DNA of 32,336 nt, taken from a virus. Its lineage: Duplodnaviria; Heunggongvirae; Uroviricota; Caudoviricetes; Peduoviridae. The position numbers and the translations under genes are program-made. A model generated the notes under the pieces. It saw only the letters and a program-made list of their open reading frames with translations. It had not been told where the DNA came from and did not search any database. Positions 11,264 through 32,336 of the stretch are shown here, piece after piece (position 1 is the stretch's first letter; each line of letters starts with the position of its first letter). The stretch spans positions 1 through 32,336 of the IMG/VR virus record IMGVR_UViG_2974787824_000001, one strand, 5' to 3'.

Positions 11264-11267
11264 AACC

Positions 11268-12699: not shown

Positions 12700-12709
12700 G
12701 TGAGGAATA

Positions 12710-17665: not shown

Positions 17666-17695
17666 TTGTGCTGTCGATTAGCCAACCGGGACAAA
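17666..17695 (+). promoter_or_regulatory. Candidate late-promoter activator element upstream of FI
   Basis: TTGTGCTGTCGATTAGCCAACCGGGACAAA, about 63 nt upstream of the FI start; shares TTGTG-N5-GAT-N-AGCCA-N-CCGGGAC with the element upstream of O. Confidence 0.45.
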
Positions 17696-17757
17696 TAGTC
17701 TGACATCTCGGGTACAACTGAAAATACCACTCACCCATTAACCACGGAGTTAAACGG

Positions 17758-18948: not shown

Positions 18949-18960
18949 GGAGCCTGACCG

Positions 18961-19479
18961 ATGGCAATGCCGCGCAAACTCAAGTTAATGAACGTCTTTC
19001 TGAACGGCTACAGCTATCAGGGCGTCGCGAAGTCCGTCACGCTACCAAAACTGACCCGTAAGCTCGAAAACTATCGCGGTGCGGGGATGAACGGCAGCGC
19101 ACCGGTAGACCTCGGCCTTGATGACGATGCGCTGTCAATGGAGTGGTCGCTCGGGGGCTTCCCGGATTCGGTTATCTGGGAGCTTTACGCCGCAACCGGT
19201 GTGGATGCCGTGCCGATTCGTTTTGCAGGCTCTTACCAGCGCGACGATACCGGCGAAACGGTGGCCGTTGAAGTGGTCATGCGTGGACGTCAGAAAGAAA
19301 TCGACACCGGCGAGGGGAAACAGGGAGAAGACACCGAGTCGAAAATCTCCGTGGTCTGCACCTATTTCCGGCTGACGATGGACGGTAAGGAGCTGGTCGA
19401 AATTGACACCATCAACATGATTGAGAAGGTGAACGGCGTCGACCGGCTGGAGCAACACCGCCGCAATATCGGCCTGTGA
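18961..19479 (+). CDS. FII: Tail tube protein (P2 gpFII-like)
   Basis: 172-aa ORF following the sheath gene; sequence as in P2 FII. Confidence 0.92.
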   Translation: MAMPRKLKLMNVFLNGYSYQGVAKSVTLPKLTRKLENYRGAGMNGSAPVDLGLDDDALSMEWSLGGFPDSVIWELYAATGVDAVPIRFAGSYQRDDTGETVAVEVVMRGRQKEIDTGEGKQGEDTESKISVVCTYFRLTMDGKELVEIDTINMIEKVNGVDRLEQHRRNIGL

Positions 19480-19486
19480 TTTTCAT

Positions 19487-19507
19487 CCGGTCAGCCTGGC
19501 TGACCGG
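19487..19507 (+). terminator. Hairpin immediately after FII (possible attenuator between tube and chaperone/tape-measure genes)
   Basis: CCGGTCAG-cctgg-CTGACCGG, an 8-bp perfect stem 8 nt after the FII stop; only a weak T-run follows, so partial termination at most. Confidence 0.35.
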
Positions 19508-19535
19508 TTAACCCCGATTCAGAAGTGAGAAAACC

Positions 19536-19811
19536 ATGAACAAAGAAAATGTCATTACCCTGGACAATCCGGTCAAACGTGGTGAGCAGGTTATCGAACA
19601 GGTCACGCTGATGAAACCCAATGCCGGGACGCTGCGCGGTGTCAGTCTGGCTGCGGTTGCAAACTCCGAAGTCGATGCACTGATTAAAGTGCTGCCGCGC
19701 ATGACGGCACCGATGCTGACCGAGCAGGAGGTCGCCGCGCTGGAACTGCCTGACCTTGTGGCGCTGGCCGGTAAGGTGGTCGGTTTTTTGTCGCCGAACT
19801 CGGTGCAGTGA
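19536..19811 (+). CDS. E: Tail assembly chaperone (P2 gpE-like)
   Basis: 91-aa ORF between the tube and tape-measure genes; slippery run near its 3' end. Confidence 0.88.
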   Translation: MNKENVITLDNPVKRGEQVIEQVTLMKPNAGTLRGVSLAAVANSEVDALIKVLPRMTAPMLTEQEVAALELPDLVALAGKVVGFLSPNSVQ

Positions 19812-19963
19812 CGTTTCCGAAAAATCTCTCGGTCGATGACCTGATGGCGGATGTGGCAGTGATATTTCACTGGCCGCCATCAGAACTGTATCCCATGAGC
19901 CTGACCGAACTCATCACATGGCGCGAAAAGGCGCTCCGGCGAAGCGGAAACACGAATGAGTAA
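19536..19963 (+). CDS. E': Tail assembly chaperone frameshift product E+E' (programmed -1 frameshift at T-TTT-TTG, 19784-19790)
   Basis: Heptamer T TTT TTG (X XXY YYZ) in the E frame. Re-reading from 19790 in the -1 frame gives VAELGAVTFPKNLSVDDLMADVAVIFHWPPSELYPMSLTELITWREKALRRSGNTNE with stop TAA at 19961-19963, overlapping the T start. Confidence 0.8.
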
Positions 19964-22403
19964 CAATGTAAAATTACAGGTATTGCTCAGGGCTGTTGAC
20001 CAGGCATCCCGCCCGTTTAAATCCATCCGCACAGCGAGCAAGTCGCTGTCGGGGGATATCCGGGAAACACAAAAATCACTGCGCGAGCTGAACGGTCACG
20101 CATCCCGTATTGAGGGATTTCGCAAGACCAGTGCGCAGCTCGCCGTGACTGGTCATGCACTTGAAAAGGCACGGCAGGAGGCCGAAGCCCTTGCCACACA
20201 GTTTAAAAACACCGAACGTCCGACACGTGCTCAGGCGAAAGTGCTGGAATCCGCGAAGCGTGCGGCGGAGGACTTACAGGCGAAATATAACCGCCTGACG
20301 GATTCCGTTAAACGCCAGCAGCGGGAACTGGCCGTTGTGGGAATTAATACCCGCAATCTTGCACATGATGAGCAGGGACTGAAAAACCGTATCAGTGAAA
20401 CCACCGCACAGCTTAACCGTCAGCGTGACGCGCTGGCGCGTGTCAGTGCGCAACAGGCAAAACTTAACGCAGTAAAACAGCGTTATCAGGCAGGCAAGGA
20501 ACTGGCCGGAAATATGGCCTCAGTGGGCGCTGCTGGTGTGGGGATTGCGGCGGCGGGAACGATGGCCGGAGTTAAGTTGCTGATGCCAGGTTATGAGTTT
20601 GCGCAGAAAAACTCAGAATTGCAGGCCGTGCTCGGAGTGGCAAAAGACTCCGCCGAAATGACCGCACTACGCAAACAGGCGCGCCAGCTCGGCGACAACA
20701 CCGCCGCCTCGGCGGACGATGCAGCCGGTGCGCAGATTATTATTGCGAAAGCCGGTGGGGATGTTGATGCCATTCAGGCGGCAACGCCGGTCACGCTGAA
20801 TATGGCGCTGGCAAACCGCCGCACGATGGAAGAAAACGCCGCCCTGCTGATGGGGATGAAATCCGCCTTTCAGCTTTCAAACGATAAGGTCGCTCATATC
20901 GGGGATGTTCTCTCCATGACGATGAACAAAACCGCCGCCGATTTTGACGGCATGAGCGATGCGCTGACCTATGCCGCACCTGTGGCAAAAAATGCCGGTG
21001 TCAGCATTGAAGAAACCGCCGCAATGGTCGGGGCGCTGCATGATGCAAAAATTACAGGCTCAATGGCGGGGACGGGAAGCCGTGCCGTGTTAAGTCGCCT
21101 GCAGGCACCAACGGGAAAAGCATGGGATGCACTCAAAGAGCTTGGCGTGAAAACCTCAGACAGTAAGGGAAACACCCGACCAGTATTTACCATTCTGAAA
21201 GAAATGCAGGCCAGTTTTGAGAAAAACCGGCTCGGTACTGCCCAGCAGGCTGAATACATGAAAACCATTTTCGGGGAGGAGGCCAGCTCAGCCGCCGCCG
21301 TGCTGATGACTGCCGCCTCAACCGGAAAGCTGGACAAACTGACCGCTGCGTTTAAAGCCTCAGACGGGAAGACCGCCGAGCTGGTAAATATCATGCAGGA
21401 CAACCTCGGCGGTGACTTTAAGGAGTTTCAGTCCGCTTATGAGGCAGTGGGGACAGACCTGTTTGACCAGCAGGAAGGCGCGCTGCGTAAGCTCACGCAG
21501 ACGGCCACAAAGTATGTGTTAAAACTCGACGGCTGGATACAGAAAAACAAATCACTGGCGTCAACCATTGGCCTCATTGCCGGTGGCGCGCTGGCGCTTA
21601 CTGGCATCATCGGTGCCATTGGTCTTGTAGCCTGGCCGGTTATCACCGGCATTAATGCCATCATCGCGGCAGCAGGCGCAATGGGGGCAATCTTCACGAC
21701 GGTTGGCAGTGCTGTTATGACCGCCATCGGGGCGGTTAGCTGGCCGGTTGTGGCTGTGGTGGCCGCTATTGTCGCCGGGGCGTTGCTTATCCGTAAATAC
21801 TGGGAGCCTGTCAGCGCATTCTTTGGCGGTGTGGTTGAAGGGCTGAAAGCGGCATTTGCGCCGGTGGGGGAACTTTTCACGCCACTTAAGCCGGTGTTTG
21901 ACTGGCTGGGCGAAAAGTTACAGGCCGCGTGGCAGTGGTTTACAAACCTGATTGCCCCGGTCAAAGCCACACAGGACACCCTGAACCGTTGCCGTGACAC
22001 GGGCGTCATGTTCGGGCAGGCACTGGCTGACGCGCTGATGCTGCCGCTTAATGCGTTCAACAAACTGCGCAGCGGCATTGACTGGGTACTGGAAAAGCTC
22101 GGGGTCATCAACAAAGAGTCAGACACACTTGACCAGACCGCCGCCAGAACTCATGCCGCCACGTATGGCACCGGTGGTTATATTCCGGCGACCAGCTCTT
22201 ATGCAGGCTATCAGGCTTATCAGCCGGTCACGGCACCGGCTGGCCGCTCTTATGTGGACCAGAGTAAAAACGAATATCACATCAGCCTGACGGGTGGAAC
22301 TGCGCCGGGGACACAGCTTGACCGCCAGTTACAGGATGCGCTCGAAAAATACGAGCGGGATAAACGTGCGCGCGCCCGTGCCAGCATGATGCATGACGGT
22401 TAA
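19956..22403 (+). CDS. T: Tail tape measure protein (P2 gpT-like)
   Basis: 815-aa ORF; alpha-helical Q/A/R-rich N-terminal part, Gly/Ala-rich hydrophobic segment (IGLIAGGALALTGIIGAIGLVAWP...), position after E/E'. Confidence 0.92.
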   Translation: MSNNVKLQVLLRAVDQASRPFKSIRTASKSLSGDIRETQKSLRELNGHASRIEGFRKTSAQLAVTGHALEKARQEAEALATQFKNTERPTRAQAKVLESAKRAAEDLQAKYNRLTDSVKRQQRELAVVGINTRNLAHDEQGLKNRISETTAQLNRQRDALARVSAQQAKLNAVKQRYQAGKELAGNMASVGAAGVGIAAAGTMAGVKLLMPGYEFAQKNSELQAVLGVAKDSAEMTALRKQARQLGDNTAASADDAAGAQIIIAKAGGDVDAIQAATPVTLNMALANRRTMEENAALLMGMKSAFQLSNDKVAHIGDVLSMTMNKTAADFDGMSDALTYAAPVAKNAGVSIEETAAMVGALHDAKITGSMAGTGSRAVLSRLQAPTGKAWDALKELGVKTSDSKGNTRPVFTILKEMQASFEKNRLGTAQQAEYMKTIFGEEASSAAAVLMTAASTGKLDKLTAAFKASDGKTAELVNIMQDNLGGDFKEFQSAYEAVGTDLFDQQEGALRKLTQTATKYVLKLDGWIQKNKSLASTIGLIAGGALALTGIIGAIGLVAWPVITGINAIIAAAGAMGAIFTTVGSAVMTAIGAVSWPVVAVVAAIVAGALLIRKYWEPVSAFFGGVVEGLKAAFAPVGELFTPLKPVFDWLGEKLQAAWQWFTNLIAPVKATQDTLNRCRDTGVMFGQALADALMLPLNAFNKLRSGIDWVLEKLGVINKESDTLDQTAARTHAATYGTGGYIPATSSYAGYQAYQPVTAPAGRSYVDQSKNEYHISLTGGTAPGTQLDRQLQDALEKYERDKRARARASMMHDG

Positions 22404-22417
22404 GGAGGTGACGAAAA

Positions 22418-22897
22418 ATGATGCTCGCGTTAGGTATGTTTGTTTTTATGCGCCAGACGCTGCCACACCAGACCATGCAGCGTGAATCAGATTATCGCTG
22501 GCCGTCAAATTCCCGTATCGGTAAACGGGATGCCTACCAGTTTCTCGGCGTTGGCGAGGAAAACATGACGCTGGCCGGTGTGCTTTATCCCGAACTGACC
22601 GGCGGCAAGCTGACGATGACCACGCTCAGGCTGATGGCAGAGGAAGGTCGGGCGTGGCCGTTGCTGGATGGCACCGGCATGATTTACGGCATGTATGTCA
22701 TCAGCAAGGTGAGTGAAACAGGGAGTATTTTCTTTGCAGACGGCACACCCCGAAAAATTGATTTTACGCTGTCGCTCACCCGCGTTGACGAATCACTGGC
22801 CGCGCTTTATGGCGATATCGGTAAACAGGCGGAATCGCTCATCGGTAAGGCCGGCAGTCTGGCGACCAGATTCACAGGTATGATGGGGGCGGGATAA
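22418..22897 (+). CDS. U: Tail protein (P2 gpU-like)
   Basis: 159-aa ORF; sequence and order as in P2 U. Confidence 0.88.
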   Translation: MMLALGMFVFMRQTLPHQTMQRESDYRWPSNSRIGKRDAYQFLGVGEENMTLAGVLYPELTGGKLTMTTLRLMAEEGRAWPLLDGTGMIYGMYVISKVSETGSIFFADGTPRKIDFTLSLTRVDESLAALYGDIGKQAESLIGKAGSLATRFTGMMGAG

Positions 22898-24060
22898 TGC
22901 TGGATGCGCTGACATTTGATGCAGGCAGTACGCTGACGCCGGATTACATGCTGATGCTCGACAGCAGGGATATTACCGGCAATATCAGCGACCGTCTGAT
23001 GAGCATGACTCTGACGGATAACCGGGGCTTTGAAGCTGACCAGCTTGATATTGAACTGAACGATGCCGACGGGCAGGTCGGGCTGCCGGTTCGTGGCGCT
23101 GTCCTGACGGTGTATATCGGCTGGAAAGGTTTTGCCCTGGTATGCAAAGGGAAATTCACCGTTGATGAGGTTGAACACCGGGGCGCGCCGGATGTGGTCA
23201 CCATCCGCGCCCGGAGTGCAGATTTCCGCGGGACGCTCAATTCCCGCCGGGAAGGCTCCTGGCATGACACCACGCTCGGTGCGATTGTTGAGGCGATAGC
23301 CTCCCGTAACAGGCTGGAAGCCAGTGTCGCTCCGTCACTGGCCGGAATTAAAATCCCGCACATCGACCAGTCGCAGGAGTCTGATGCAAAATTCCTGACC
23401 CGCCTTGCTGAACGCAACGGCGGTGAGGTGTCGGTAAAAATGGGAAAACTGTTGTTTCTCAAAGCGGGGCAGGGGGTGACGGCCAGCGGTAAAAAAGTCC
23501 CGCAGGTCACCATAACCCGCAGCGACGGCGACCGCCATCATTTTGCGATTGCTGACCGTGGAGCCTATACCGGCGTAACGGCAAAGTGGTTACACACCAA
23601 AGACCCGAAGCCGCAAAAGCAGAAGGTAAAACTGAAACGCAAAAAGAAAGAGAAACACCTGCGCGCACTGGAGCACCCGAAAGCGAAACCGGTCACGCAG
23701 AAGAAAGCGCCAAAAGTACCGGAAGCGCGCGAAGGTGAATACATGGCCGGTGAGGCTGACAACGTTTTTGCACTGACCACGGTATATGCCACGAAAGCAC
23801 AGGCCATGCGCGCCGCTCAGGCGAAGTGGGATAAACTGCAACGGGGTGTGGCGGAGTTCTCCATCAGCCTGGCTACCGGTCGGGCAGATATTTACACGGA
23901 AACACCGGTTAAAGTGTCAGGCTTTAAGCGCGTCATAGACGAGCAGGACTGGACAATCACTAAGGTGACTCATTTTCTGAATAATAGCGGCTTCACGACG
24001 TCCTTAGAGCTTGAGGTCAGGCTTTCTGATGTGGAGTACGAAACAGAAGATGATGAGTGA
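22897..24060 (+). CDS. D: Tail protein / late control gene D product (P2 gpD-like)
   Basis: 387-aa ORF overlapping the U stop; contains a lysine-rich block (KPQKQKVKLKRKKKEKHLR); sequence as in P2 D. Confidence 0.9.
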   Translation: MLDALTFDAGSTLTPDYMLMLDSRDITGNISDRLMSMTLTDNRGFEADQLDIELNDADGQVGLPVRGAVLTVYIGWKGFALVCKGKFTVDEVEHRGAPDVVTIRARSADFRGTLNSRREGSWHDTTLGAIVEAIASRNRLEASVAPSLAGIKIPHIDQSQESDAKFLTRLAERNGGEVSVKMGKLLFLKAGQGVTASGKKVPQVTITRSDGDRHHFAIADRGAYTGVTAKWLHTKDPKPQKQKVKLKRKKKEKHLRALEHPKAKPVTQKKAPKVPEAREGEYMAGEADNVFALTTVYATKAQAMRAAQAKWDKLQRGVAEFSISLATGRADIYTETPVKVSGFKRVIDEQDWTITKVTHFLNNSGFTTSLELEVRLSDVEYETEDDE

Positions 24061-24141
24061 TGTAATTTATTTATCTGTTTGTTTTATAAGGATAAATTAA
24101 CTAAAATGGCACCATCAACAAAACCGGAAGAGGTGCTCGCG

Positions 24142-24360
24142 ATGTTTCATTGTCCTTTATGCCAGCATGCCGCACATGCGCGTACAAGCCGCTATATCAC
24201 TGACACGACAAAAGAGCGTTATCACCAGTGTCAGAACGTGAATTGCAGCGCCACGTTCATCACCTATGAGTCGGTACAGCGATACATCGTGAAGCCGGGA
24301 GAAGTCCACGCCGTAAGACCGCACCCGTTGCCATCAGGGCAGCAAATTATGTGGATGTAA
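24142..24360 (+). CDS. ogr: Late gene transcriptional activator Ogr (zinc-finger)
   Basis: 72-aa product MFHCPLCQHAAHARTSRYITDTTKERYHQCQNVNCSATF... with a CxxC...CxxxxC zinc-binding motif; AT-rich upstream region; start taken at the internal Met matching the length I recall for P2 Ogr. Confidence 0.9.
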   Translation: MFHCPLCQHAAHARTSRYITDTTKERYHQCQNVNCSATFITYESVQRYIVKPGEVHAVRPHPLPSGQQIMWM

Positions 24361-24371
24361 TTACAAACAGA

Positions 24372-24398
24372 AAGCCCCTCAGTCGAGGGGCTTTTTTG
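24372..24398 (+). terminator. Rho-independent terminator after ogr
   Basis: AGCCCCTC-agtc-GAGGGGCT stem-loop followed by TTTTTT, 12 nt after the ogr stop. Confidence 0.8.
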
Positions 24399-24575
24399 TC
24401 GATGTGGTCAATGTGTGGACGTGACCAGAAATAAATCCTTTTATTTCATGTGATTAGATATCAAAAAATGTCACCAATAACTGACTTGGTAGCCCCCGCC
24501 GTAGCGGTATTTTCTGTTGTATTACAATTAGTTAAATTACTCATATCGCTTCAATTGGCTCTAGTTAACTCTGGT
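24399..24575. other. Probable attP-containing region (ogr-int intergenic)
   Basis: In P2-type genomes the attachment site lies between ogr and the 3' end of int. The region is AT-rich non-coding and contains a small inverted repeat (TGGTCA...TGACCA near 24404-24430). The core could not be pinpointed without a host attB sequence. Confidence 0.35.
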
Positions 24576-25571
24576 TTATGGACGCATTATGGACATTCCT
24601 GACACCGGGTTAAGAGTCACTGCATCTTGTAAGAAATCCGGTGCAAAGTGTGCGTAGGTCATAGTTTGCTGAATGTTAGAATGACCCAGGATGCGCTGCA
24701 ATGTGATTATGTTACCTCCATTCATTATAAAATGTGTGGCAAATGTATGCCTCAAAACATGCACTGCCTGTCCGTCAGGTAAATCGGGTTTTACTTCCCT
24801 GAGAGCGTTACGCACTTTGTAGTAACTGGCATTAAAAAGCCTGCCTGAATTTTTGGTCTTGATCCGTTTAATCAGGTCCTGCGAAACGGGAATTGTCCTG
24901 CGCTTTCCGTTTTTAGTTTTCATAAACGTAACCATCTGGTTAATGATGTGTTCAGCTTTTAAATTAGACACTTCACTCCAGCGTCCACCAGTAGAAAGGC
25001 AGACCAGAGTCGCATTTAATTCATCACCATCAAGCATGGATAACAGCCGCGTAATCTCTTCACTGGACAAAAAAGCCATTTCTGTAACAGCTTCACGTAA
25101 CCGCTTAACCTCACGGAACGGGTTGTGAGAGTGGTATTCACCGGCGTCAATTAACTTGGTGAACATCCCGCTCATTATTGCCAGATGCCGATTTACGCTG
25201 GCTGGTTTTAGACCATCGTTCATCATTACAACGCGATAATCAGTTATCGTTTTCTTTGTTAGCTGGTCAGCTCTGGACACTCCCATTTCTGCAAATTTGG
25301 CGATTATTGTCGTTAAACGCCCCCGTTCAATATCTCCACGCTCATGTGATTTTCCGTGATATATCCACCATCTGCCTAACAACTCTGTAAGAGTTCGGCG
25401 GTCGGCTGGTTTCTCCAGCCACTCTTTGTTGTGGTAGTTAACCAGTACATGACGTTCGAATGCTTGAGCTTCACCTTTAGTTTTAAATTTCCGCCTGATA
25501 CGTTTTCCATCTGCACCCTGCGGTCTGACGTCCACTTCATAACGACCATCATCGAGCTTTTTAATAGACAT
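24576..25571 (-). CDS. int: Tyrosine integrase (P2 Int family, diverged from P2)
   Basis: 331-aa leftward ORF; N-terminus MSIKKLDDGRYEVD... resembles P2 Int; C-terminal catalytic region has HVLRHTFATH (HxxR) and a Tyr in ...QTMTYAHFAP. Confidence 0.92.
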   Translation of the reverse strand: MSIKKLDDGRYEVDVRPQGADGKRIRRKFKTKGEAQAFERHVLVNYHNKEWLEKPADRRTLTELLGRWWIYHGKSHERGDIERGRLTTIIAKFAEMGVSRADQLTKKTITDYRVVMMNDGLKPASVNRHLAIMSGMFTKLIDAGEYHSHNPFREVKRLREAVTEMAFLSSEEITRLLSMLDGDELNATLVCLSTGGRWSEVSNLKAEHIINQMVTFMKTKNGKRRTIPVSQDLIKRIKTKNSGRLFNASYYKVRNALREVKPDLPDGQAVHVLRHTFATHFIMNGGNIITLQRILGHSNIQQTMTYAHFAPDFLQDAVTLNPVSGMSIMRP

Positions 25572-25664
25572 AAAGCCCTCCGATGACGCTGTTTACTTCT
25601 ACTACTTGAAAATTAATGCAATTTTCTTTCGTACATTTACTACACACATATGCTGAATAAATCG

Positions 25665-25964
25665 TCAGCCAGTTTTCTGGTCTGAGTGGTGCAAGGTTGT
25701 TGAGTCTTGCCCAATGTGTGCGAGAGCCGGGGCTATTTGTCCAGCTGCTGGATCTGTTTCATCAAACATGAACCAGTCACGGTACTTGCGAAAGCGTGGA
25801 TGCTTAAACAGCTTCATACCTGCTTCCATAGGCATTTTTGATTTTCCTGATTCATATCCATGATATGTGTAGTAATTAATTCCAATTAATTCAGCAAGTT
25901 CCTTAGTTTTAAGGCGTTCGGATTCACGGATGAGCTTTAGTTTTTCACTTTGTTCACTTGACAT
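25665..25964 (-). CDS. C: Immunity repressor (P2 C-type, diverged)
   Basis: Start at the internal Met (MSSEQSEKLKLIRESERLKTKELAELIG...) gives 99 aa; helix-turn-helix N-terminus and a C-terminal GQIAPALAH motif as I recall in P2 C; leftward, upstream of int. Confidence 0.8.
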   Translation of the reverse strand: MSSEQSEKLKLIRESERLKTKELAELIGINYYTYHGYESGKSKMPMEAGMKLFKHPRFRKYRDWFMFDETDPAAGQIAPALAHIGQDSTTLHHSDQKTG

Positions 25965-26002
25965 AATTTTGCTAATCTCCAATTATATTGTTACTTGGCA
26001 AT

Positions 26003-26052
26003 TTGTGATTCACTCAAAAAGGCTCTAGATGGCTCCAGTTGGTGAATCGCAA
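26003..26052. promoter_or_regulatory. Candidate Pe/Pc operator-promoter region between C and cox
   Basis: Divergent intergenic region. Imperfect inverted repeat TTGTGATTCAC (26003-26013) / GTGAATCGCAA (26042-26052), 10 of 11 bases complementary, flanking a GGCTC...GGCTC direct repeat (26021-26035). Confidence 0.4.
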
Positions 26053-26057
26053 ATCTT

Positions 26058-26429
26058 ATGGAGGATAGCAAAGTGACGACAAATGTAGAAATTTCTTGTC
26101 CAACTAGCGATGAGGCAAGTTTCGAAAATGAAGCCAAACGTAAAAGCATTCAGATTTCAGAGCGCCCATCTGATTTGCTGTCGAAAGAAGGTTTTGCTCT
26201 TTACATCGGTAAGACACCACGCGCGGTGGCTGAAATGGCTAAAGCAGGAAAGCTGCCAGCCTTCTACATGACAGACCCATTAAAACCAAGAGGGAAAGCT
26301 GAATTATGGATTAATCGCCGTGAGTGGGACAAGTACGCAGCCCAACTGGTTGATGAAGCTCCGACAGAATGGCATGACTGGAAAAATCGCATTAGTTACA
26401 GCAAATCAAGACATGGCCGTGCGGCTTAA
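26058..26429 (+). CDS. cox: Cox-like excisionase / early-promoter repressor
   Basis: First rightward early gene opposite C; the segment EGFALYIGKTPRAVAEMAKAGKLPAFYMTDP resembles the P2 Cox DNA-binding region. Start uncertain: ATG 26058 or GTG 26073 after GGAGG; longer than P2 Cox as I recall it. Confidence 0.65.
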   Translation: MEDSKVTTNVEISCPTSDEASFENEAKRKSIQISERPSDLLSKEGFALYIGKTPRAVAEMAKAGKLPAFYMTDPLKPRGKAELWINRREWDKYAAQLVDEAPTEWHDWKNRISYSKSRHGRAA

Positions 26430-26610
26430 GGTGGAAAGGATGAACGAGCCTCGTTGTATTGCTCAGTTACTGCGTAACGAAAGCCCCAGGGCGATTGACT
26501 TCACCATCACCCACGGGAAGGGACGCAAGGGAATCATTATCCGCACCAAAAAACAGAGTCCGTTAAAGACGGCTCTGACCTTTCTGAAAAGCCGGAGGGG
26601 CTGGAAATGA
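26413..26610 (+). CDS. Small early protein (P2 orf78-position)
   Basis: Short basic ORF (MAVRLKVERMNEPRCIAQLL...) between cox and B, overlapping the cox 3' end in another frame; start chosen at the first ATG after the cox-frame overlap; uncertain. Confidence 0.45.
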   Translation: MAVRLKVERMNEPRCIAQLLRNESPRAIDFTITHGKGRKGIIIRTKKQSPLKTALTFLKSRRGWK

Positions 26611-27107
26611 CAGTGATGACGCTTAATCTCGTTGAAAAACAGCCAGCAGCTATGCGCCGGATAATTGGTAAGCATCTTGCCGTTCCTCGCTGGCAGGAGA
26701 CATGTGATTATTATAATCAGATGATGGAGCGCGAACGGTTAACGGTTTGCTTCCATGCTCAGTTAAAACAGCGTCACGCAACGATGTGTTTTGAAGAAAT
26801 GAACGACGTCGAACGTGAACGACTGGTATGTGCAATTGATGAATTGCGTGGTGCATTCTCAAAACGCCGTCAGGTTGGCGCAAGTGAGTATGCATATATT
26901 AGTTTTTTAACAGTCAGTCAGCGTCGTACTTTATTTATGCATGCCGGATTGACTGAAAAAGAATTCAACCAGCCATACTGGCGAATTAATGAAGAGTCAT
27001 GTTACTGGCGTGATGCTTTATTCCGTGCATTACGTGAATTATTCAGCCTGTTTGAGTATGCACCGACAATTCTGACGTCGGTAAAACCAGAGCAATATCT
27101 GCATTAA
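26607..27107 (+). CDS. B: Replication protein B (P2 gpB-like, helicase-loader-type)
   Basis: 166-aa ORF; sequence and length as I recall for P2 B. Confidence 0.88.
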   Translation: MTVMTLNLVEKQPAAMRRIIGKHLAVPRWQETCDYYNQMMERERLTVCFHAQLKQRHATMCFEEMNDVERERLVCAIDELRGAFSKRRQVGASEYAYISFLTVSQRRTLFMHAGLTEKEFNQPYWRINEESCYWRDALFRALRELFSLFEYAPTILTSVKPEQYLH

Positions 27108-27170
27108 GTAATTAACCAGAGTTTTTAACGCACTTAATTGTGCGGGGCTTCTTTTTGCCTGGAGAAAGTC

Positions 27171-27395
27171 ATGCATACAGTTTCTGAAAATCAGTGCGGT
27201 AAATACGCATTACTGCTGCAACAGGCCAGAACCGAAGCACAGGCCGACGCAGCGACGCGCTTTTCTTCTCATCTTGACGCCATGATTCGCCATATCACAA
27301 AGGCGGAGTTATCCCGCGTGGAGATAGTCGAGCTGCTCAGTCAGGAGTCGGAAAAATTTCACAATATCGGATTGTCTCGCGGGGAGGTGCTTTGA
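27171..27395 (+). CDS. Small early protein (P2 orf80-position)
   Basis: ATG at 27171 preceded by GGAG; 74-aa product in the early operon between B and A. Confidence 0.6.
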
Positions 27396-27697
27396 TGTCC
27401 TGTTCTCATTCAGTTGTATTACTGAATAACGCCTTAAAAATCGCCGTTATGAAAAATGGCGATTTGTCTCTTATTCAACTTGGTATTGATAAAGAAAAAC
27501 GCGAAATAACTGAGTCTGTTATCGCGATTTATCAGAACGAATTAAACCTCCTGTCTGATGTGGTCAATTTACTTGTTAAACGCGCTGTATTTCACAAGCA
27601 AATTTCCTCCGTGGATGAACTGACAAAATTAACGACAGAAATCGCCAGCTATTGCGCTGATGAATTTAAGAAACTGAACGATAAAAGGAGCTGGTAA
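27395..27697 (+). CDS. Small early protein (P2 orf81-position)
   Basis: ATG at 27395 preceded by GGGAGG; 100 aa; overlaps the previous stop. Confidence 0.6.
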   Translation: MSCSHSVVLLNNALKIAVMKNGDLSLIQLGIDKEKREITESVIAIYQNELNLLSDVVNLLVKRAVFHKQISSVDELTKLTTEIASYCADEFKKLNDKRSW

Positions 27698-27921
27698 TGC
27701 CGGACAACGTGGATTTTATTCAGGAACAACAGGCTGAATTACTGGAGCGCCAGATTAACGCGGCAAGGGTAAAACATTGCGGTACTTCTGCGCTGGTTTG
27801 CGAAGAGTGTGATGCGCCAATACCTGCTGCCCGTCGTGCGGCTTATCCGTCAGCCACGCGTTGTGTTTCCTGCCAGTCAGTCTTTGAAGCAAAAAACAAA
27901 CATTACCGGAGAATGGCATGA
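27697..27921 (+). CDS. DksA/TraR-family C4 zinc-finger protein (P2 orf82-position)
   Basis: 74-aa product with CEEC-(17 aa)-CVSC, the C4 arrangement typical of the DksA/TraR zinc-finger family; AAGGAG precedes the start. Confidence 0.7.
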   Translation: MPDNVDFIQEQQAELLERQINAARVKHCGTSALVCEECDAPIPAARRAAYPSATRCVSCQSVFEAKNKHYRRMA

Positions 27922-28193
27922 GTATTCGTATTGAAATTGGCGAACGTTATGTCGTTACCAGTGACAGCTTTCAGTTTATTCTCCACGAGAAAAAGAGAGC
28001 TGAAAGCGGTAAAAACGCCGGTCAGGAATGGCTGGCGGTGGTTGGTTATTACCCGAAATTAAGCCAGCTCGTTTCCGGCCTGATGCATCACGATATTCTG
28101 ACCGGAAGCGCAAAGTCTTTTGCTGATTTAAACGCGCAGGTTGAGCAACTCAGCAAGCGTTGTTCAGAGGCTTTTGGCTCATATGGCCGTTAA
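27918..28193 (+). CDS. Small early protein (P2 orf83-position)
   Basis: 91-aa ORF overlapping the previous stop; its stop overlaps the A start region. Confidence 0.6.
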   Translation: MSIRIEIGERYVVTSDSFQFILHEKKRAESGKNAGQEWLAVVGYYPKLSQLVSGLMHHDILTGSAKSFADLNAQVEQLSKRCSEAFGSYGR

Positions 28194-30489
28194 AGCCTCC
28201 GGGCGTTTTGTCCCTCCGTCAGCATTTGCCGCAGGCACCGGTGAGACGTTTACCGGTGCTTATGCATGGAACGCGCCACGCGAGGCCGTCGGGCGCGAAA
28301 GACCCCTTACACGTGACGAGATGCGTCAGGTGCAAGGTGTTTTATCCACGATTAATCGCCTGCCTTACTTTTTGCGCTCGCTGTTTACTTCACGCTATGA
28401 CTACATCCGGCGCAATAAAAGTCCGGTACACGGGGTTTATTTCCTCACATCCACTTTTCAGCGTCGTTTATGGCCGCGCATTGAGCGTGTGAATCAGCGC
28501 CATGAAATGAACACCGACGCGTCGTTACTGTTTCTGGCAGAGCGTGACCACTATGCGCGCCTGCCGGGAATGAATGACAAGGAGCTGAAAAAGTTTGCCG
28601 CCCGTATCTCATCGCAGCTTTTCATAATGTATGAGGAACTCTGCGATGCCTGGGTGGATGCGCATGGCGAGAAAGAATCGCTGTTTACGGATGAGGCGCA
28701 GGCTCACCTGTATGGTCATGTTGCTGGCGCTGCACGTGCTTTCAATATTTCCCCGCTCTACTGGAAAAAATACCGTAAAGGGCAGATGACCACGAGGCAG
28801 GCATATTCTGCCATTGCCCGTCTGTTTAACGATGAGTGGTGGACTCATCAGCTTAAAGGCCAGCGTATGCGCTGGCATGAGGCGTTACTGATTGCTGTCG
28901 GGGAGGTCAATAAAGACCGTTCTCCTTATGCCAGTAAACATGCCATTCGTGATGTGCGTGCGCGCCGCCAGGCAAATCTGGAATTTCTTAAATCGTGTGA
29001 CCTTGAAAACAAGGAAACCGGCGAGCGCATCGACCTTATCAGTAAGGTGATGGGCAGTATTTCTAATCCCGAAATTCGCCGGATGGAGCTGATGAACACC
29101 ATCGCCGGTATTGAGCGTTACGCTGCCGCAGAGGGTGATGTGGGGATGTTTATCACGCTGACCGCGCCGTCAAAGTATCACCCGACACGTCAGGTCAGAA
29201 AAGGCGAAAGTAAAACCGTCCAGCTAAATCACGGCTGGAATGATGAGGCATTTAATCCAAAGGATGCGCAGCGTTATCTCTGCCGTATCTGGAGCCTGAT
29301 GCGCACGGCATTCAAGGATAATGATTTACAAGCCTACGGTTTGCGTGTTGTTGAACCACACCACGACGGAACGCCGCACTGGCATATGATGCTTTTTTGT
29401 AATCCACGCCAGCGTAACCAGATTATTGAAATCATGCGTCGCTATGCGCTCAAAGAGGATGGCGACGAAAGAGGAGCCGCGCGAAACCGTTTTCAGGCAA
29501 AACACCTTAACCGGGGCGGTGCTGCGGGATATATCGCGAAATACATTTCAAAAAACATCGATGGCTATGCACTGGATGGTCAGCTCGATAACGACACCGG
29601 CAGGCCGCTGAAAGACACTGCCGCGGCTGTTACCGCATGGGCGTCAACGTGGCGCATTCCGCAATTTAAAACGGTTGGCCTGCCGACAATGGGGGCTTAC
29701 CGTGAACTACGCAAATTGCCTCGCGGCGTCAGCATTGCTGATGAGTTTGACGAACGCGTCGAGGCTGCACGCGCTGCCGCAGACAGTGGCGATTTTGCGC
29801 TGTATATCAGCGCGCAGGGTGGGGCAAATGTCCCGCGCGATTGTCAGACTGTCAGGGTCGCCCGTAGTCCGTCGGATGAAGTTAACGAGTACGAGGAAGA
29901 AGTCGAGAGAGTGGTCGGCATTTACGCGCCGCATCTCGGCGCGCGTCATATTCATATCACCAGAACGACGGACTGGCGCATTGTGCCGAAAGCTCCGGTC
30001 GTTGAGCCTTTGACTTTAAAAAGCGGCATCGCCGCGCCTCGGAGTCCTGTCAATAACTGTGGAAAGCTCACCGGTGGTGATACTTCGTTACCGGCTCCCA
30101 CACCTTCTGAACACGCCGCAGCAGTGCTTAATCTGGTTGATGACGGTGTTATCGAATGGAATGACCCGGAGGTCGTGAGGGCGCTCAGGGGCGCATTAAA
30201 ACACGGCCTGAGAACACCAAACCGTCAGCAAAGAAACGGAAGCCCGTTAAAACCGAATGAAATAGCGCCATCGGCCAGGCTGACCCGGTCGGAGCGTATG
30301 CAAATTACCCGTATCCGTGTTGACCTTGCTCAGAACGGCATCTGGCCTCAGCGATGGGAACTTGAGGCGCTGGCGCGTGGCGCGACCGTAAATTATGACG
30401 GGAAAAAATTCACGTATCCGGTCACTGATGAGTGGCCGGGATTCTCAACAGTAATGGAGTGGACATCATGGCAAAAATTCACGAGGTAA
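28183..30489 (+). CDS. A: Replication initiation protein A (rolling-circle HUH endonuclease, P2 gpA-like)
   Basis: Start at ATG 28183 (MAVKASGRF...) gives 768 aa; contains the HUH motif (GTPHWHMMLF) and a catalytic tyrosine cluster (GYIAKYISKN) typical of P2 A-type initiators. Confidence 0.92.
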   Translation: MAVKASGRFVPPSAFAAGTGETFTGAYAWNAPREAVGRERPLTRDEMRQVQGVLSTINRLPYFLRSLFTSRYDYIRRNKSPVHGVYFLTSTFQRRLWPRIERVNQRHEMNTDASLLFLAERDHYARLPGMNDKELKKFAARISSQLFIMYEELCDAWVDAHGEKESLFTDEAQAHLYGHVAGAARAFNISPLYWKKYRKGQMTTRQAYSAIARLFNDEWWTHQLKGQRMRWHEALLIAVGEVNKDRSPYASKHAIRDVRARRQANLEFLKSCDLENKETGERIDLISKVMGSISNPEIRRMELMNTIAGIERYAAAEGDVGMFITLTAPSKYHPTRQVRKGESKTVQLNHGWNDEAFNPKDAQRYLCRIWSLMRTAFKDNDLQAYGLRVVEPHHDGTPHWHMMLFCNPRQRNQIIEIMRRYALKEDGDERGAARNRFQAKHLNRGGAAGYIAKYISKNIDGYALDGQLDNDTGRPLKDTAAAVTAWASTWRIPQFKTVGLPTMGAYRELRKLPRGVSIADEFDERVEAARAAADSGDFALYISAQGGANVPRDCQTVRVARSPSDEVNEYEEEVERVVGIYAPHLGARHIHITRTTDWRIVPKAPVVEPLTLKSGIAAPRSPVNNCGKLTGGDTSLPAPTPSEHAAAVLNLVDDGVIEWNDPEVVRALRGALKHGLRTPNRQQRNGSPLKPNEIAPSARLTRSERMQITRIRVDLAQNGIWPQRWELEALARGATVNYDGKKFTYPVTDEWPGFSTVMEWTSWQKFTR

Positions 30490-30920
30490 AGCTGCACGCA
30501 AAATATTTCGACCTTGTGCTGGAAGGAAAGAAACGTGCAGAGTTTCGGAAAAATGACCGTAATTATGAGCGCGGGGACACGCTGATTTTGCATGAATGGG
30601 TGCAGGGTGTGTTTACGGGGCGAAAGGTTGAAGCCCGGGTAACAGATGTTACTGACCTGTCAGACTGGCTGGAAGATTATGTCTTGCTAAGTATTGAGCT
30701 GCTTAATACAAGCGCATATGAGATTGTGAACTGGAAAGAACTTAGTGAGCGTGGTCTGGTATTCAGAATTAATCATGAAATTATGCATCAGCTCGGCCTT
30801 GCTGTTATGTATGAACCAGAGACGGGGATGTCTGGCGGGGCAATGGTTGCCACGGATGGAGCATGGAACTATTCAGATGAACAGATTGAGAGTGCAAAGC
30901 AAAACGGGTGGCTTGGATAA
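30468..30920 (+). CDS. ASCH/PUA-like small protein (DUF3850-like; P2 orf91-position)
   Basis: Start at ATG 30468 (MAKIHEVKLHAKYFDLVLEGKKRAEFRKNDRNYERGDTLILHEW...); this N-terminal pattern matches what I recall of the ASCH-like DUF3850 family; overlaps the 3' end of A. Confidence 0.6.
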   Translation: MAKIHEVKLHAKYFDLVLEGKKRAEFRKNDRNYERGDTLILHEWVQGVFTGRKVEARVTDVTDLSDWLEDYVLLSIELLNTSAYEIVNWKELSERGLVFRINHEIMHQLGLAVMYEPETGMSGGAMVATDGAWNYSDEQIESAKQNGWLG

Positions 30921-31126
30921 TGCACGGAATACCAGGCGAGATACCGCAACATAACACTAAAAATATCAAGCTGATGGCTATTGTTCACCGTCTACAGCAG
31001 ATTATGGTCAACGAAAATCTGACGCCTGACGAGCTGGTCGGGTGTGCTGAAATAGTCCGGGATAATTACGGGCGGTTTAACTATATCGGTCAGTCCAGAG
31101 TTGCGCCACCACCACGCAGACGATAG
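30920..31126 (+). CDS. Small hypothetical protein
   Basis: 68-aa ORF whose ATG overlaps the preceding stop (ATGA), suggesting translational coupling; no recognisable motif. Confidence 0.4.
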   Translation: MHGIPGEIPQHNTKNIKLMAIVHRLQQIMVNENLTPDELVGCAEIVRDNYGRFNYIGQSRVAPPPRRR

Positions 31127-31199
31127 AGAACGCCGCCAGTCGTGAAACTTGTTTTCAGGGCTGGCGGGGTTGAACAACGAGCGAAGTGAGGCGTTAGCA

Positions 31200-32141
31200 T
31201 TAAGTTAATTTTAATGAATGGTACTCTATCGAGCTGATTGTAGATGCGATATATTTACGATCATTTACAGAGAGTATTGCCGCTAGTAGACGACATACCA
31301 GAGCCTGCATTTGTAGCAATATATCGCTACCATATTGACAATCATTGATACTAGAGAAACCAAGCGGTTGCCCATTAAAAATGGCTTCATGAAAATTATC
31401 ATTGCGTATAACTGAAACATTACATTCATCTGTTGCCCATGACGGGATTTTTACACCGTAATTTTCGCACATCCAATATACTCTATTTTGATGAGATGGT
31501 TTTTTCTCTTTAATGACTTTATCCCTTTCATCCCATGCTATAGCAAAACAGCAATCAAGAGCCATATAAAGATACTGGAATTTCTCAAAGGAAAGGTATA
31601 GTGGGTTATGTGATAGGAATAGGGAGTGTATCACCGCAGCTATTCTTTTAATGGAGCGATCATCTTTTTGTTTGTCTTTTATATAGTTAAGTGCTAGCTC
31701 TATTACTTCTTTTTCAGAGCATCCAACGAGAATAAAGTCAGTTAACTTAGTGGGCTTGATAGTGGTTGCATCAAGAAAACCAGCGTCAGTGGTTGTCAAT
31801 CTTATACCCTTGAAAAAAGAGAGGCACCACACAACAAAGTTGAGAGTTTCTAACGAGGATGTGTTTTTTAATTTTAGTGTGTGCGTTTTGGGCATGCCGA
31901 ATACTCGGTAACTATAAGGCATTGTGCATGTGTCACCATTAAGGTTATATACCTTTCGATTCCCAGGGTATATCCAACCATTAACAACGTTTTTATCATT
32001 GTTAATACGTTCCACTTTCTCAATAAGACCGGGTAAAGTACGCAAAGAAAATTGTTCAGTCTCAATGTTAACTTCTACTGGATAGTATCCAAACTCCGAA
32101 ATAATCTCATTTGGTTGCTGTTCATCAACTTCACCTTGCAT
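31200..32141 (-). CDS. Hypothetical protein; AT-rich cargo gene at the tin/old position - candidate anti-phage defence protein
   Basis: 313-aa leftward ORF next to the right genome end, where P2 carries tin and old. AT-rich with A/T-biased codons. No Walker A motif, so not an Old-type ATPase; no motif recognised by eye. Confidence 0.75.
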   Translation of the reverse strand: MQGEVDEQQPNEIISEFGYYPVEVNIETEQFSLRTLPGLIEKVERINNDKNVVNGWIYPGNRKVYNLNGDTCTMPYSYRVFGMPKTHTLKLKNTSSLETLNFVVWCLSFFKGIRLTTTDAGFLDATTIKPTKLTDFILVGCSEKEVIELALNYIKDKQKDDRSIKRIAAVIHSLFLSHNPLYLSFEKFQYLYMALDCCFAIAWDERDKVIKEKKPSHQNRVYWMCENYGVKIPSWATDECNVSVIRNDNFHEAIFNGQPLGFSSINDCQYGSDILLQMQALVCRLLAAILSVNDRKYIASTISSIEYHSLKLT

Positions 32142-32253
32142 AACTTTCTCCGTTCAAAAACAGGCACGATAATTCTCGTAAGCCTATCATGTTCGCAAAG
32201 TATCCATACCTGTGGATTTTGTAAATTTAAGTTGATTTGTCATTAAATAAGCC

Positions 32254-32265
32254 GTTGCATGCAAC
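32254..32265. promoter_or_regulatory. 12-bp perfect palindrome upstream of the 313-aa cargo gene (candidate operator)
   Basis: GTTGCATGCAAC is its own reverse complement; lies about 115 bp upstream of the cargo start on the minus strand, with a second TTGCATGC copy at 32278-32285. Confidence 0.3.
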
Positions 32266-32336
32266 AAGTGAATGTTTTTGCATGCGTCGGGGATGTCCGT
32301 TCAGGCTGCGTGCGGTCAGGACTGGTGCGGATCCAT

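What the first reader, a model, noticed from the sequence alone, without database searches (positions are those of the whole stretch)
24361..26072. Lysogeny module is P2-type in organisation but diverged (likely heteroimmune), with a candidate operator
Structural and replication proteins look near-identical to my recollection of P2. Int, C and Cox are recognisably the same families but substantially different in sequence; C keeps the GQIAPALAH motif and the length I recall for P2 C, and Cox is longer than I recall for P2 Cox. The C-cox intergenic region has an imperfect inverted repeat (26003-26013 / 26042-26052) flanking a GGCTC direct repeat. The ogr-int interval, where attP should lie, does not contain the P2 core sequence as I remember it, suggesting a different integration site.
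Basis: partly seen in the sequence, partly recalled or inferred. Interest (0 to 1): 0.4.

Follow-up and report, generated by a model that had tools for sequence, protein, structure and literature searches.

The report
Known P2-like lysogeny cassette, pflA-integrating
This is an ordinary, already-sequenced P2-like phage whose integration-and-immunity cassette is a known non-P2 allele: it inserts at the start of the host pflA gene and should not be repressed by the P2 repressor.

Summary
Against P2, the window is 97% identical in DNA on both sides of a 1,977-bp cassette (24449-26425). Inside the cassette, Int is 53% identical, C 50.5% and Cox 35%. C is 99 aa and keeps GQIAPALAH. Cox is 118 aa, against 91 aa in P2.

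The P2 attP core and the P2 and W-phi operator half-sites are absent from the switch. Prophage junctions show that the phage integrates through a 13-bp core (ACCAATAACTGAC, 24472-24484) at codons 2-5 of pflA. This is the published phiD145/phiD160/ECA29 site.

None of this is new. The window is 100% identical to Yersinia phage VB-YPM-4 (ON146439.1). The cassette is 99% identical in six other named Peduovirus phages. Its switch is present in 143 of 5,426 complete E. coli genomes.

The "GGCTC direct repeat" is most likely a set of Cox boxes. The repeats are 10-bp phased units, and their best match anywhere in the window lies beside the P' arm of attP. The 13-nt inverted repeat is non-random (12 of 2,000 shuffles reach it), but it is not conserved in sister switches, so its role is unresolved.

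One side observation deserves a test. The attP supplies a conserved in-frame ATG and 19 further codons that replace the pflA start codon in lysogens.

The parts
24371..24394 (+). ogr / F-operon rho-independent terminator, shared with P2
   Evidence: Stem-loop detected. It corresponds to the P2 annotated terminator 24265-24288 at an offset of +106. This stretch is 100% identical to P2.
24403..24421 (+). Int arm-type sites of the P arm (TGTGGTCA, TGTGGACG; 11-bp spacing), identical to P2
   Evidence: Motif hits. Corresponds to the P2 P arm annotation. Fits the consensus tgTGGaCa given in PMC3448106.
24449..26425 (.). Swapped lysogeny cassette: part of the IHF region, attP core, Cox boxes, P' arm, int, C, switch and cox
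   Evidence: P2 identity of about 97% ends at 24448 and resumes at 26426.
24472..24484 (.). attP core ACCAATAACTGAC, identical to attB at pflA codons 2-5
   Evidence: attL (L004, L006), attR (L005) and the empty MG1655 site (L007) were compared.
24537..24576 (+). Candidate Cox boxes at attP: four 10-bp phased units TTACTCATAT / CGCTTCAATT / GGCTCTAGTT / AACTCTGGTT, next to the P' arm
   Evidence: This is the best non-self match in the whole window to the switch 20-mer and 30-mer. It occupies the same place as the P2 Cox footprint. The units are conserved in prophages whose Int is 80% identical.
24577..24595 (+). Int arm-type sites of the P' arm (TATGGACG, TATGGACA), overlapping the int stop codon
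   Evidence: Motif hits. Same layout as the P2 P' arm.
24576..25571 (-). int, a 331-aa tyrosine integrase of the pflA-targeting (phiD145-type) kind
   Evidence: The exact protein occurs on at least 1,000 contigs.
25665..25964 (-). C immunity repressor, 99 aa
   Evidence: Same start as annotated in ON146439.1 and phage D8.
25958..25986 (+). Early promoter Pe: TTGACA, 17-nt spacer, AATTAT; the -35 overlaps the C start codon
   Evidence: 10 of 12 consensus positions. The offsets relative to the C start are the same as for the annotated P2 Pe. TTGACAT is invariant in all eight related switches.
26001..26013 (+). Left arm of the inverted repeat (ATTTGTGATTCAC), about 15 nt downstream of the Pe -10
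26011..26040 (+). Candidate Cox boxes in the switch: CACTCAAAAA / GGCTCTAGAT / GGCTCCAGTT
   Evidence: This is a conserved island between variable flanks in sister switches. P2 cox-boxes are spaced 10-11 nt apart (PMC3936717).
26042..26054 (+). Right arm of the inverted repeat (GTGAATCGCAAAT)
26053..26082 (-). Candidate lysogenic promoter Pc: TTGTCG (26082-26077), 18-nt spacer, TAAGAT (26058-26053). It is the mirror image of Pe. Inferred only.
   Evidence: It lies within a 33-nt mirror repeat, 25949-25981 against 26059-26091, matching 24 of 33 positions; none of 500 shuffles reach this. The layout resembles 186 pL, whose -35 lies inside apl. It scores 8 of 12 consensus positions by my hand count, below the 9-of-12 minimum of the promoter scan, which did not list it.
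26073..26429 (+). cox, 118 aa, with a hypervariable N-terminal extension of about 25-30 aa

Best explanation
The window is a P2-like (Peduovirus) phage genome identical to Yersinia phage VB-YPM-4. Its structural and replication genes are about 97% identical to P2. A 1,977-bp lysogeny cassette (24449-26425) is a different, already catalogued allele, exchanged as a block by recombination. The cassette runs from inside the IHF region of attP to the stop codon of cox.

How it works:
(a) Shown. Int recombines a 13-bp core (ACCAATAACTGAC) with the identical sequence at codons 2-5 of the host pflA gene. This is the site published for phiD145, phiD160 and ECA29. P2-type arm repeats lie on both sides of the core.
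(b) Inferred from homology and position. C, a 99-aa HTH repressor of a non-P2, non-W-phi immunity class, represses the early promoter Pe (TTGACA 25958 / AATTAT 25981). The phage should therefore be heteroimmune to P2.
(c) Inferred, with sequence support. Cox (118 aa) binds 10-bp phased boxes (nnCTCYRRWT). One set lies between the face-to-face promoters (26011-26040), where Cox would shut off Pc. A second set lies next to the P' arm (24537-24576), where Cox would direct excision.
(d) Unresolved. The 13-nt inverted repeat flanking the switch boxes lies in the immunity-specific variable DNA. It may contribute to C binding or to Pc, but its role is not settled.
For: Identity and prevalence:
- 100% identity to ON146439.1.
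- The cassette is 99% identical in P24E6b, D8, 11W, 12W, P24A7b and pro483.
- The exact Int, C and Cox proteins each occur on at least 1,000 contigs.
- The switch is present in 143 of 5,426 complete E. coli genomes.

Block boundaries against P2.

Protein identities (Int / C / Cox) to P2, W-phi, 186 and pro147.

Family assignments.

Integration site:
- attL, attR and attB sequences.
- 405 of 5,426 genomes carry the attL junction.
- Nilsson 2011 Table 1 places phiD145 and phiD160 at MG1655 coordinate 950293 and gives ECA29 the same site.
- A 2026 review states that ECA29 integrates in pflA.

Regulatory elements:
- Pe has the same offsets as in P2 and is invariant in eight switch variants.
- The Cox-box 20-mer finds its best match at the attP P' side.
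- The boxes are conserved while the flanking DNA and the C N-terminus vary.
- P2 Cox boxes show 10-11 nt phasing.
- P2 and W-phi operator half-sites are absent from the switch.
Against: - No binding, transcription-start or immunity experiment exists for this allele in what I could read.
- The phiD145 and phiD160 sequences (AM158280, AM159077, AJ298559, AM159075) are not in the collections, and Karlsson 2006 is not held. The match to phiD145 therefore rests on the integration coordinate, not on sequence. The Karlsson class number cannot be assigned.
- The coordinate match needs a 777-bp shift between the old and new MG1655 numbering, which I supply from memory.
- The C operator half-sites could not be identified convincingly. 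The best direct repeats near Pe match only 6 of 8 positions.
- The Pc candidate scores 8 of 12 by my hand count, below the 9-of-12 minimum of the promoter scan, which did not list it, and its -10 is not conserved in sister switches.
Confidence: 0.88

Rival explanations
1. The inverted repeat (26001-26013 / 26042-26054) is the C operator. C dimers would bind the two arms in opposite orientation, one just downstream of the Pe start and one over Pc. The element would then both repress Pe and autoregulate Pc, unlike the direct-repeat operators of P2 and W-phi.
For: - The repeat is non-random: 12 of 2,000 shuffles reach it.
- These are the only two copies in the window.
- Both arms fall in the immunity-specific variable DNA that flanks the conserved Cox boxes.
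- The left arm sits about where W-phi O2 sits relative to Pe.
- The S. manionii switch also has an inverted copy of its own repeat across the boxes.
Against: - P2 and W-phi C proteins bind direct repeats (PMC1904263 and PMC2995052).
- An inverted repeat flanking the boxes is absent in five of eight sister switches.
- The S. manionii C protein has an identical recognition helix but entirely different flanking elements. It shares only the Pe -35, spacer and -10 with this phage.
Confidence: 0.25
2. The GGCTC repeats are the C repressor half-sites, which is the first reader's implicit reading of 'operator'.
For: They are direct repeats, the kind of site P2-family C proteins use. They lie between C and cox.
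Against: - The spacing is 10 bp, not the 22 or 34 bp of known C operators.
- They lie about 35-55 bp downstream of the Pe -10 rather than flanking it.
- The same units recur at the attP P' side, where Cox acts and C does not.
- They stay conserved in sister phages whose C N-terminal HTH domains differ, while their Cox DNA-binding domain is the same.
Confidence: 0.08
3. The inverted repeat acts as an RNA hairpin in the Pe or Pc leader, for example to control cox translation or as a processing site in the overlapping convergent transcripts.
For: The Pe leader folds with the two arms paired (-24 kcal/mol, z = -1.9).
Against: The z-score is weak, and 6 of 200 shuffles fold as well. The opposite strand gives z = -0.9. 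The pairing is not maintained by covariation across sister switches.
Confidence: 0.07
4. The cassette is functionally P2-immune: despite the divergence, P2 C cross-represses it, so the phage is homoimmune.
For: The C-terminal third of C (GQIAPALAH...SDQKTG) and the Pe -35 are conserved with P2.
Against: - Identity is 50.5%, against at least 95% within published classes.
- The HTH recognition helix differs from that of P2.
- No GTTTAGAT half-site is present in the switch, even allowing one mismatch.
Confidence: 0.03

Closest known systems
Yersinia phage VB-YPM-4 (ON146439.1), plus Peduovirus P24E6b, P24A7b and Escherichia phages D8, 11W, 12W, pro483
   Same: VB-YPM-4 is 100% identical over the finding and over window 7400-32336. 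The other phages carry the same int-C-cox cassette at 98.9-99.1% identity, with an identical C protein.
   Different: Nothing differs for VB-YPM-4. The others differ in cargo hotspots and tail-fibre regions outside the finding.
Bacteriophage P2 lysogeny module (AF063097: attP, int, C, Pe/Pc, cox)
   Same: Same gene order and orientation. Same P arm and terminator (100% identical). Arm repeats of the same consensus. Core at the same position. Pe -35 and -10 at the same offsets from the C start. C is 99 aa. Cox acts through 10-11 nt phased boxes at both Pc and attP.
   Different: Int is 53%, C 50.5% and Cox 35% identical. The core sequence and attB differ. The P2 O1/O2 half-site GTTTAGAT is absent. 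Cox carries a roughly 25-aa N-terminal extension. The candidate Pc -35 lies inside cox instead of upstream of it.
phiD145 / phiD160 site-specific recombination system (Mandali 2010; Nilsson 2011, PMC3448106) and Pectobacterium prophage ECA29
   Same: Integration at the same chromosomal point, MG1655 950293 in the old numbering, which is the first codons of pflA. ECA29 is listed with the phiD145 site and is reported to lie in pflA.
   Different: No sequence comparison with phiD145 or phiD160 was possible because the records are not held. Which of the two immunity types corresponds to this window is unknown.
pro147 / S164 type and vB_YpM_115/117 (E. albertii) type switches: sister immunity alleles
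   Same: Int is 99.7% identical and the attP is the same. The C-terminal half of C is identical, as is Cox from residue ~30 onward. The Cox boxes are the same.
   Different: The C N-terminal HTH domain (78-80% identity overall), the Pe spacer, the DNA flanking the Cox boxes and the Cox N-terminal 30 aa all differ. These probably define separate immunity specificities.
Coliphage 186 pR - Apl sites - pL switch
   Same: Face-to-face promoters with a run of phased binding sites for the excisionase/repressor between them. The lysogenic promoter's -35 lies inside the excisionase gene.
   Different: 186 uses an unrelated 192-aa CI plus CII. Its Int is only 39% identical. It has no detectable Cox or C homology to this phage, and it integrates in a tRNA-Ile gene.

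Membership tests
P2-type lysogeny module (Peduovirus int-C / cox switch) | Gene order and orientation: ogr > attP < int < C | cox > orf78 > B | tested here: met
   ORF map and deposited annotations.
P2-type lysogeny module (Peduovirus int-C / cox switch) | A roughly 100-aa C repressor homologous to P2 C | tested here: met
   99 aa, 50.5% identical over the full length. PDB 2XCJ/2L49 at E 1.1e-25.
P2-type lysogeny module (Peduovirus int-C / cox switch) | A Cox-family winged-helix protein as the first gene of the early operon | tested here: met
   Pfam PF10743 at E 3e-29. PDB 4LHF at E 1.9e-6.
P2-type lysogeny module (Peduovirus int-C / cox switch) | Tyrosine integrase with P2-type arm repeats (tgTGGaCa) on both sides of the core | tested here: met
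   Pfam integrase domains. Two repeats at 24403/24414 and two at 24577/24588.
P2-type lysogeny module (Peduovirus int-C / cox switch) | Convergent Pe and Pc promoters in the C-cox interval | tested here: inconclusive
   Pe is found at P2-equivalent offsets. Pc is only a mirror-image candidate that scores 8 of 12 by my hand count, and the scan did not list it.
P2-type lysogeny module (Peduovirus int-C / cox switch) | C binds a pair of direct repeats at Pe | tested here: inconclusive
   Only weak direct repeats are present (6 of 8 at 19-bp spacing, 7 of 8 at 37-bp spacing). Binding cannot be tested with these tools.
P2 immunity class (homoimmune with P2) | C protein at least 95% identical within a class (Karlsson 2006, as quoted in PMC3448106) | tested here: not met
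   50.5% identity.
P2 immunity class (homoimmune with P2) | Operator half-sites GTTTAGAT, two copies 22 bp apart, flanking the Pe -10 | tested here: not met
   No match with up to one mismatch in 25950-26080.
W-phi immunity class | C at least 95% identical, and TATTGGTGAC half-sites at Pe | tested here: not met
   C is 46% identical. The only exact TATTGGTGAC is in attP at 24470-24479; there is none in the switch.
phiD145/phiD160-type integration system | attB at MG1655 950293 (old numbering), the 5' end of pflA | tested here: met
   The core lies at NC_000913.3 951066-951078 and the pflA start is at 951080. Junctions were read in lysogens. Table 1 of PMC3448106 gives the published coordinate. 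The 777-bp renumbering offset is from my own knowledge.
phiD145/phiD160-type integration system | Int and attP sequence matching phiD145 (AM158280, AM159077, AJ298559) | not testable with these tools
   The records are not in any collection.
186-type (Eganvirus) switch | CI of about 190 aa, plus Apl and CII | tested here: not met
   No significant similarity of C to CI or of Cox to Apl. No cII-like gene follows cox.

The most novel reading that the evidence does not exclude
The attP of this phage family does not simply disrupt pflA. It may carry a replacement 5' end for the gene.

What is seen:
- Integration changes the native pflA ATG to AAG.
- The P' side of attP supplies an in-frame ATG (window 24544, minus strand) followed by 19 codons (MSNLTNCNTTENTATAGATK). 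This lies 31 nt downstream of the int stop codon.
- Lysogens would therefore make an N-terminally extended PflA, transcribed from the prophage C-int operon or from a promoter in the P' arm.
- The ATG, the reading frame and the 20-codon length are kept in prophages whose Int is only 76-80% identical, in Scandinavium, Pseudescherichia and Rahnella.
- 405 of 5,426 complete E. coli genomes carry this junction.

If the reading is correct, a widespread prophage family places anaerobic pyruvate formate-lyase activation under phage transcriptional control.
Probability: 0.4. Interest if true: 0.4.

Novelty: already known. Interest (0 to 1): 0.14.

Why it matters
The finding matters little. It is a textbook case of modular exchange of the immunity and integration cassette among P2-like phages, described by Karlsson 2006 and Nilsson 2011, and this exact phage and cassette are already deposited many times.

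Its practical value is in annotation. The deposited VB-YPM-4 record calls C and Cox "hypothetical protein" and Int "XerC". The attP core, arm sites, Pe and the likely Cox boxes can now be placed on the sequence.

It also implies that the natural host is probably E. coli, not Yersinia. That inference rests on where the identical prophages and the attB site are found.

The one thread worth an experiment is the conserved phage-encoded replacement of the pflA start.

Tried and rejected
- Retrieving the phiD145 and phiD160 records (AM159077, AM158280) and the Karlsson 2006 paper (PMC1482927). None is held, so no Karlsson class number could be assigned. Nilsson 2011 has no supplementary text held.
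- Cluster look-ups for source names that would tie the proteins to phiD145. Only generic E. coli names came back.
- RNA-hairpin reading of the inverted repeat. The z-scores are -1.9 and -0.9, which is not convincing.
- Testing whether an inverted repeat flanking the Cox boxes is a conserved, covarying feature across eight sister switches. It is not: only this phage (p about 0.04) and S. manionii (p 0.065) show one.
- Locating the C half-sites by exhaustive 8-mer pair search, and by comparing switches whose C recognition helices are identical (window with S. manionii; E. albertii with S. hiltneri). This gave several weak, mutually inconsistent candidates. I do not commit to any of them.
- A CRP-site reading of TGTGA in the left arm. 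I rejected it by hand alignment because the second half-site is missing.
- A leftward promoter with a perfect TATAAT at 25987-25982 as Pc. I rejected it because its transcript would start downstream of the C Shine-Dalgarno sequence.
- Literature searches for pflA together with P2-like prophages. These found only the review statement about ECA29.
Full report
**What the window is.** Region 24361-26500 is 100% identical to Yersinia phage VB-YPM-4 (ON146439.1). It is 98.9-99.1% identical to Peduovirus P24E6b and P24A7b and to Escherichia phages D8, 11W, 12W and pro483. Window 7400-32336 as a whole is also 100% identical to ON146439.1. The exact Int, C and Cox protein sequences are each recorded on at least 1,000 contigs. 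The C N-terminus, switch and cox N-terminus stretch (25780-26180) is present in 143 of 5,426 complete E. coli genomes. This is therefore a sequenced and common phage type.

**Checking the observation.** A blastn of the window against P2 (AF063097) gives 96.9% identity for 1-13434, 97.2% for 17532-24448 and 97.0% for 26426-30688. Between 24449 and 26425 only two weak patches of 66-69% match. At protein level Ogr is 100% identical, Orf78 96% and B 99%. Int is 53%, C 50.5% and Cox 35%.
- C is 99 aa, as in P2, and keeps GQIAPALAH.
- Cox is 118 aa if it starts at GTG 26073. That position is preceded by GGAGGA and corresponds to the ATG of all relatives. P2 Cox is 91 aa.
- The inverted repeat exists and is 13 nt long: 26001-26013 against 26042-26054, matching 12 of 13. 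Twelve of 2,000 dinucleotide shuffles of the 108-bp intergenic region reach this score.
- The GGCTC repeat is at 26021 and 26031.
- The P2 attP core has no match with up to three mismatches.

All parts of the observation are confirmed.

**Anatomy of attP and the integration site.** P2 identity runs through the ogr terminator and the P arm (TGTGGTCA / TGTGGACG, 24403-24421). It stops at 24448, inside the position of the P2 IHF site. A second pair of arm repeats (TATGGACG / TATGGACA, 24577-24595) overlaps the int stop codon, as the P' arm does in P2.

Searching E. coli genomes with this region gave prophages whose int end abuts pflA and whose ogr end abuts pflB. I compared attL (L004, L006), attR (L005), the phage, and the empty site of MG1655 (L007). 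They share a 13-bp identical core, ACCAATAACTGAC (window 24472-24484), which is the complement of pflA codons 2-5. In NC_000913.3 the core is at 951066-951078.

Nilsson et al. 2011 (PMC3448106, Table 1) place phiD145 and phiD160 at MG1655 950293 and give prophage ECA29 the same site. With the 777-bp shift between the old and current MG1655 numbering, which I supply from my own knowledge, that coordinate falls inside this core. Independently, a 2026 review states that ECA29 integrates in pflA.

The "different integration site" is therefore real and already published. An 80-nt attL junction probe is covered at 80% or more in 405 of 5,426 complete E. coli genomes.

**The switch.** A sigma-70-like promoter, TTGACA (25958-25963), a 17-nt spacer, then AATTAT (25981-25986), sits at exactly the offsets of the annotated P2 Pe relative to the C start codon. 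TTGACAT is invariant in all eight related switches I collected. I take this to be Pe.

The GGCTC repeats are two units of a 10-bp phased array: CACTCAAAAA / GGCTCTAGAT / GGCTCCAGTT (26011-26040). When the 20-mer 26021-26040 is slid over both strands of the whole window, its best non-self matches are 24557 (15 of 20) and 24547 (14 of 20). The 30-mer also finds 24547 first. These hits form a four-unit phased array (24537-24576) immediately next to the P' arm, which is where the P2 Cox footprint lies. P2 Cox binds boxes spaced 10-11 nt apart at both Pc and attP (PMC3936717).

In sister phages that share the Cox DNA-binding domain but have different C N-termini, these units stay conserved while the DNA around them changes. 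I conclude that they are Cox boxes, not C half-sites. This is an inference with good sequence support.

**The inverted repeat.** Its arms lie in the variable, immunity-specific DNA on either side of the Cox boxes, and they are the only two copies in the window. That fits a specificity element.

Three results argue against calling it the C operator:
- P2 and W-phi C proteins bind direct repeats (PMC1904263).
- An inverted repeat across the boxes is absent from five of eight sister switches.
- The Scandinavium manionii prophage has a C with an identical recognition helix. It shares the Pe -35, spacer and -10 with this phage (TTTGCTAATCTCCAATTAT) but has entirely different flanking elements.

An RNA-hairpin role has weak support (z = -1.9 and -0.9). 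I leave its role open. My estimates are 25% that it is a C-binding element, 7% an RNA hairpin, and otherwise part of Pc or without function.

A larger 33-nt mirror repeat (25949-25981 against 26059-26091, 24 of 33 matches, reached by none of 500 shuffles) makes the cox-proximal side a mirror image of Pe. It suggests a Pc of TTGTCG (26082-26077), an 18-nt spacer, then TAAGAT (26058-26053), with its -35 inside cox. Phage 186 has the same layout, with the pL -35 inside apl. This Pc is only a candidate. It scores 8 of 12 by my hand count, the promoter scan did not list it, and its -10 is not conserved in the sister switches.

**Immunity.** C is 50.5% identical to P2 C and 46% to W-phi C. Published immunity classes share at least 95% identity within a class. 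Neither the P2 half-site nor the W-phi half-site occurs in the switch. Heteroimmunity to both is very likely, but it is inferred.

Phages with the same Int and attP, namely pro147/S164 and vB_YpM_115/117, have C proteins with an identical C-terminal half but a different HTH domain (78-80% identity overall) and a different switch. This matches the published picture of new immunity classes arising by recombination within the switch.

**Side observation on pflA.** At attL the native pflA ATG becomes AAG. RefSeq annotates a 265-aa PflA (WP_000067979.1) that starts at an ATG in phage DNA (window 24544, minus strand), 31 nt after the int stop codon. The same in-frame ATG plus 19 further codons (MSNLxxCxxxExT...) is present in prophages at pflA in E. 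albertii, three Scandinavium species and Pseudescherichia vulneris, whose Int is 80% identical. My reading of the L017 P'-side sequence finds it in Rahnella as well (Int 76%), where the native ATG is retained; the motif search did not pick up pflA there.

This could be a phage-borne replacement of the pflA 5' end rather than a disruption. Alternatively, the conservation could reflect protein-binding sites in the P' region, and no strong ribosome-binding site precedes the ATG. I rate the functional reading at about 40%.

**Verdict.** The feature is already known. Interest is low.

Noticed in passing
window 24485-24544 (minus strand); L004 3001-3078; L013-L016 and L019 about 4028-4093; L017 (Rahnella, read on the reverse complement): In lysogens the native pflA ATG becomes AAG. 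An in-frame ATG plus 19 further codons from the attP P' side (MSNLTNCNTTENTATAGATK) extends PflA to 265 aa. The ATG, frame and length are conserved in prophages with 76-80% identical Int in other genera. A promoter-like TTAACC, 16-nt spacer, CATAAT (24613-24586, minus strand) lies just upstream. The literature describes this site as a pflA disruption.
   Followed up: partly
window 15934-17283 (minus strand): In the slot that holds fun(Z) in P2, the window has a 449-aa ORF. It matches the PADLOC defence model PD-T7-1 (E 1.5e-156) and has no Pfam hit.
   Followed up: partly
window 30688-32336, ORF 31200-32141 (minus strand): The slot that holds tin/old in P2 has no similarity to P2 here. It carries a 313-aa ORF with no Pfam or PADLOC match, a possible unknown cargo or defence gene.
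   Followed up: partly
window 30432-30920 (plus strand): A 162-aa ORF overlapping the end of gene A carries DUF3850/ASCH and DUF7415 domains. P2 has orf91 at about this position; the P2 match ends at window 30688, inside this ORF.
   Followed up: no
window 13256-13711: The tail-fibre gene H contains a 132-bp tandem repeat, 3.5 copies at 89% identity. All copies match a single stretch of P2 H (13252-13459).
   Followed up: no
L009 (vB_YpM_117) 745-780: This sister phage has a deletion running from the attP core directly into the middle of int, leaving a truncated 251-aa 'XerC'. It is a derivative that presumably cannot integrate.
   Followed up: partly
window 24470-24479 (minus strand): An exact copy of the W-phi C operator half-site TATTGGTGAC overlaps the attP core. 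By my base-frequency estimate only about 0.06 exact copies are expected in the window by chance. It is probably a coincidence.
   Followed up: no
window 25949-25981 and 26059-26091: A 33-nt mirror repeat (24 of 33 matches, reached by none of 500 shuffles) makes the start regions of C and cox mirror images of each other, including -35-like hexamers, Shine-Dalgarno complements and the first codons.
   Followed up: partly
window 26073-26165; L008 1609-1700; L009 1996-2090: The first ~30 residues of this long Cox family are hypervariable between otherwise near-identical Cox proteins, while the length (118 aa) is kept. The same DNA probably also carries Pc.
   Followed up: partly
L014 (Scandinavium manionii) about 2490-2615, reverse strand: This sister switch has a clean 9-bp direct repeat, ATGTGTCTT twice, 21 bp apart just after the Pe -10. 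It also has an inverted copy (AAAGACAT) beyond the Cox boxes. That is a clearer operator-like pattern than in the window, even though its C recognition helix is identical.
   Followed up: partly
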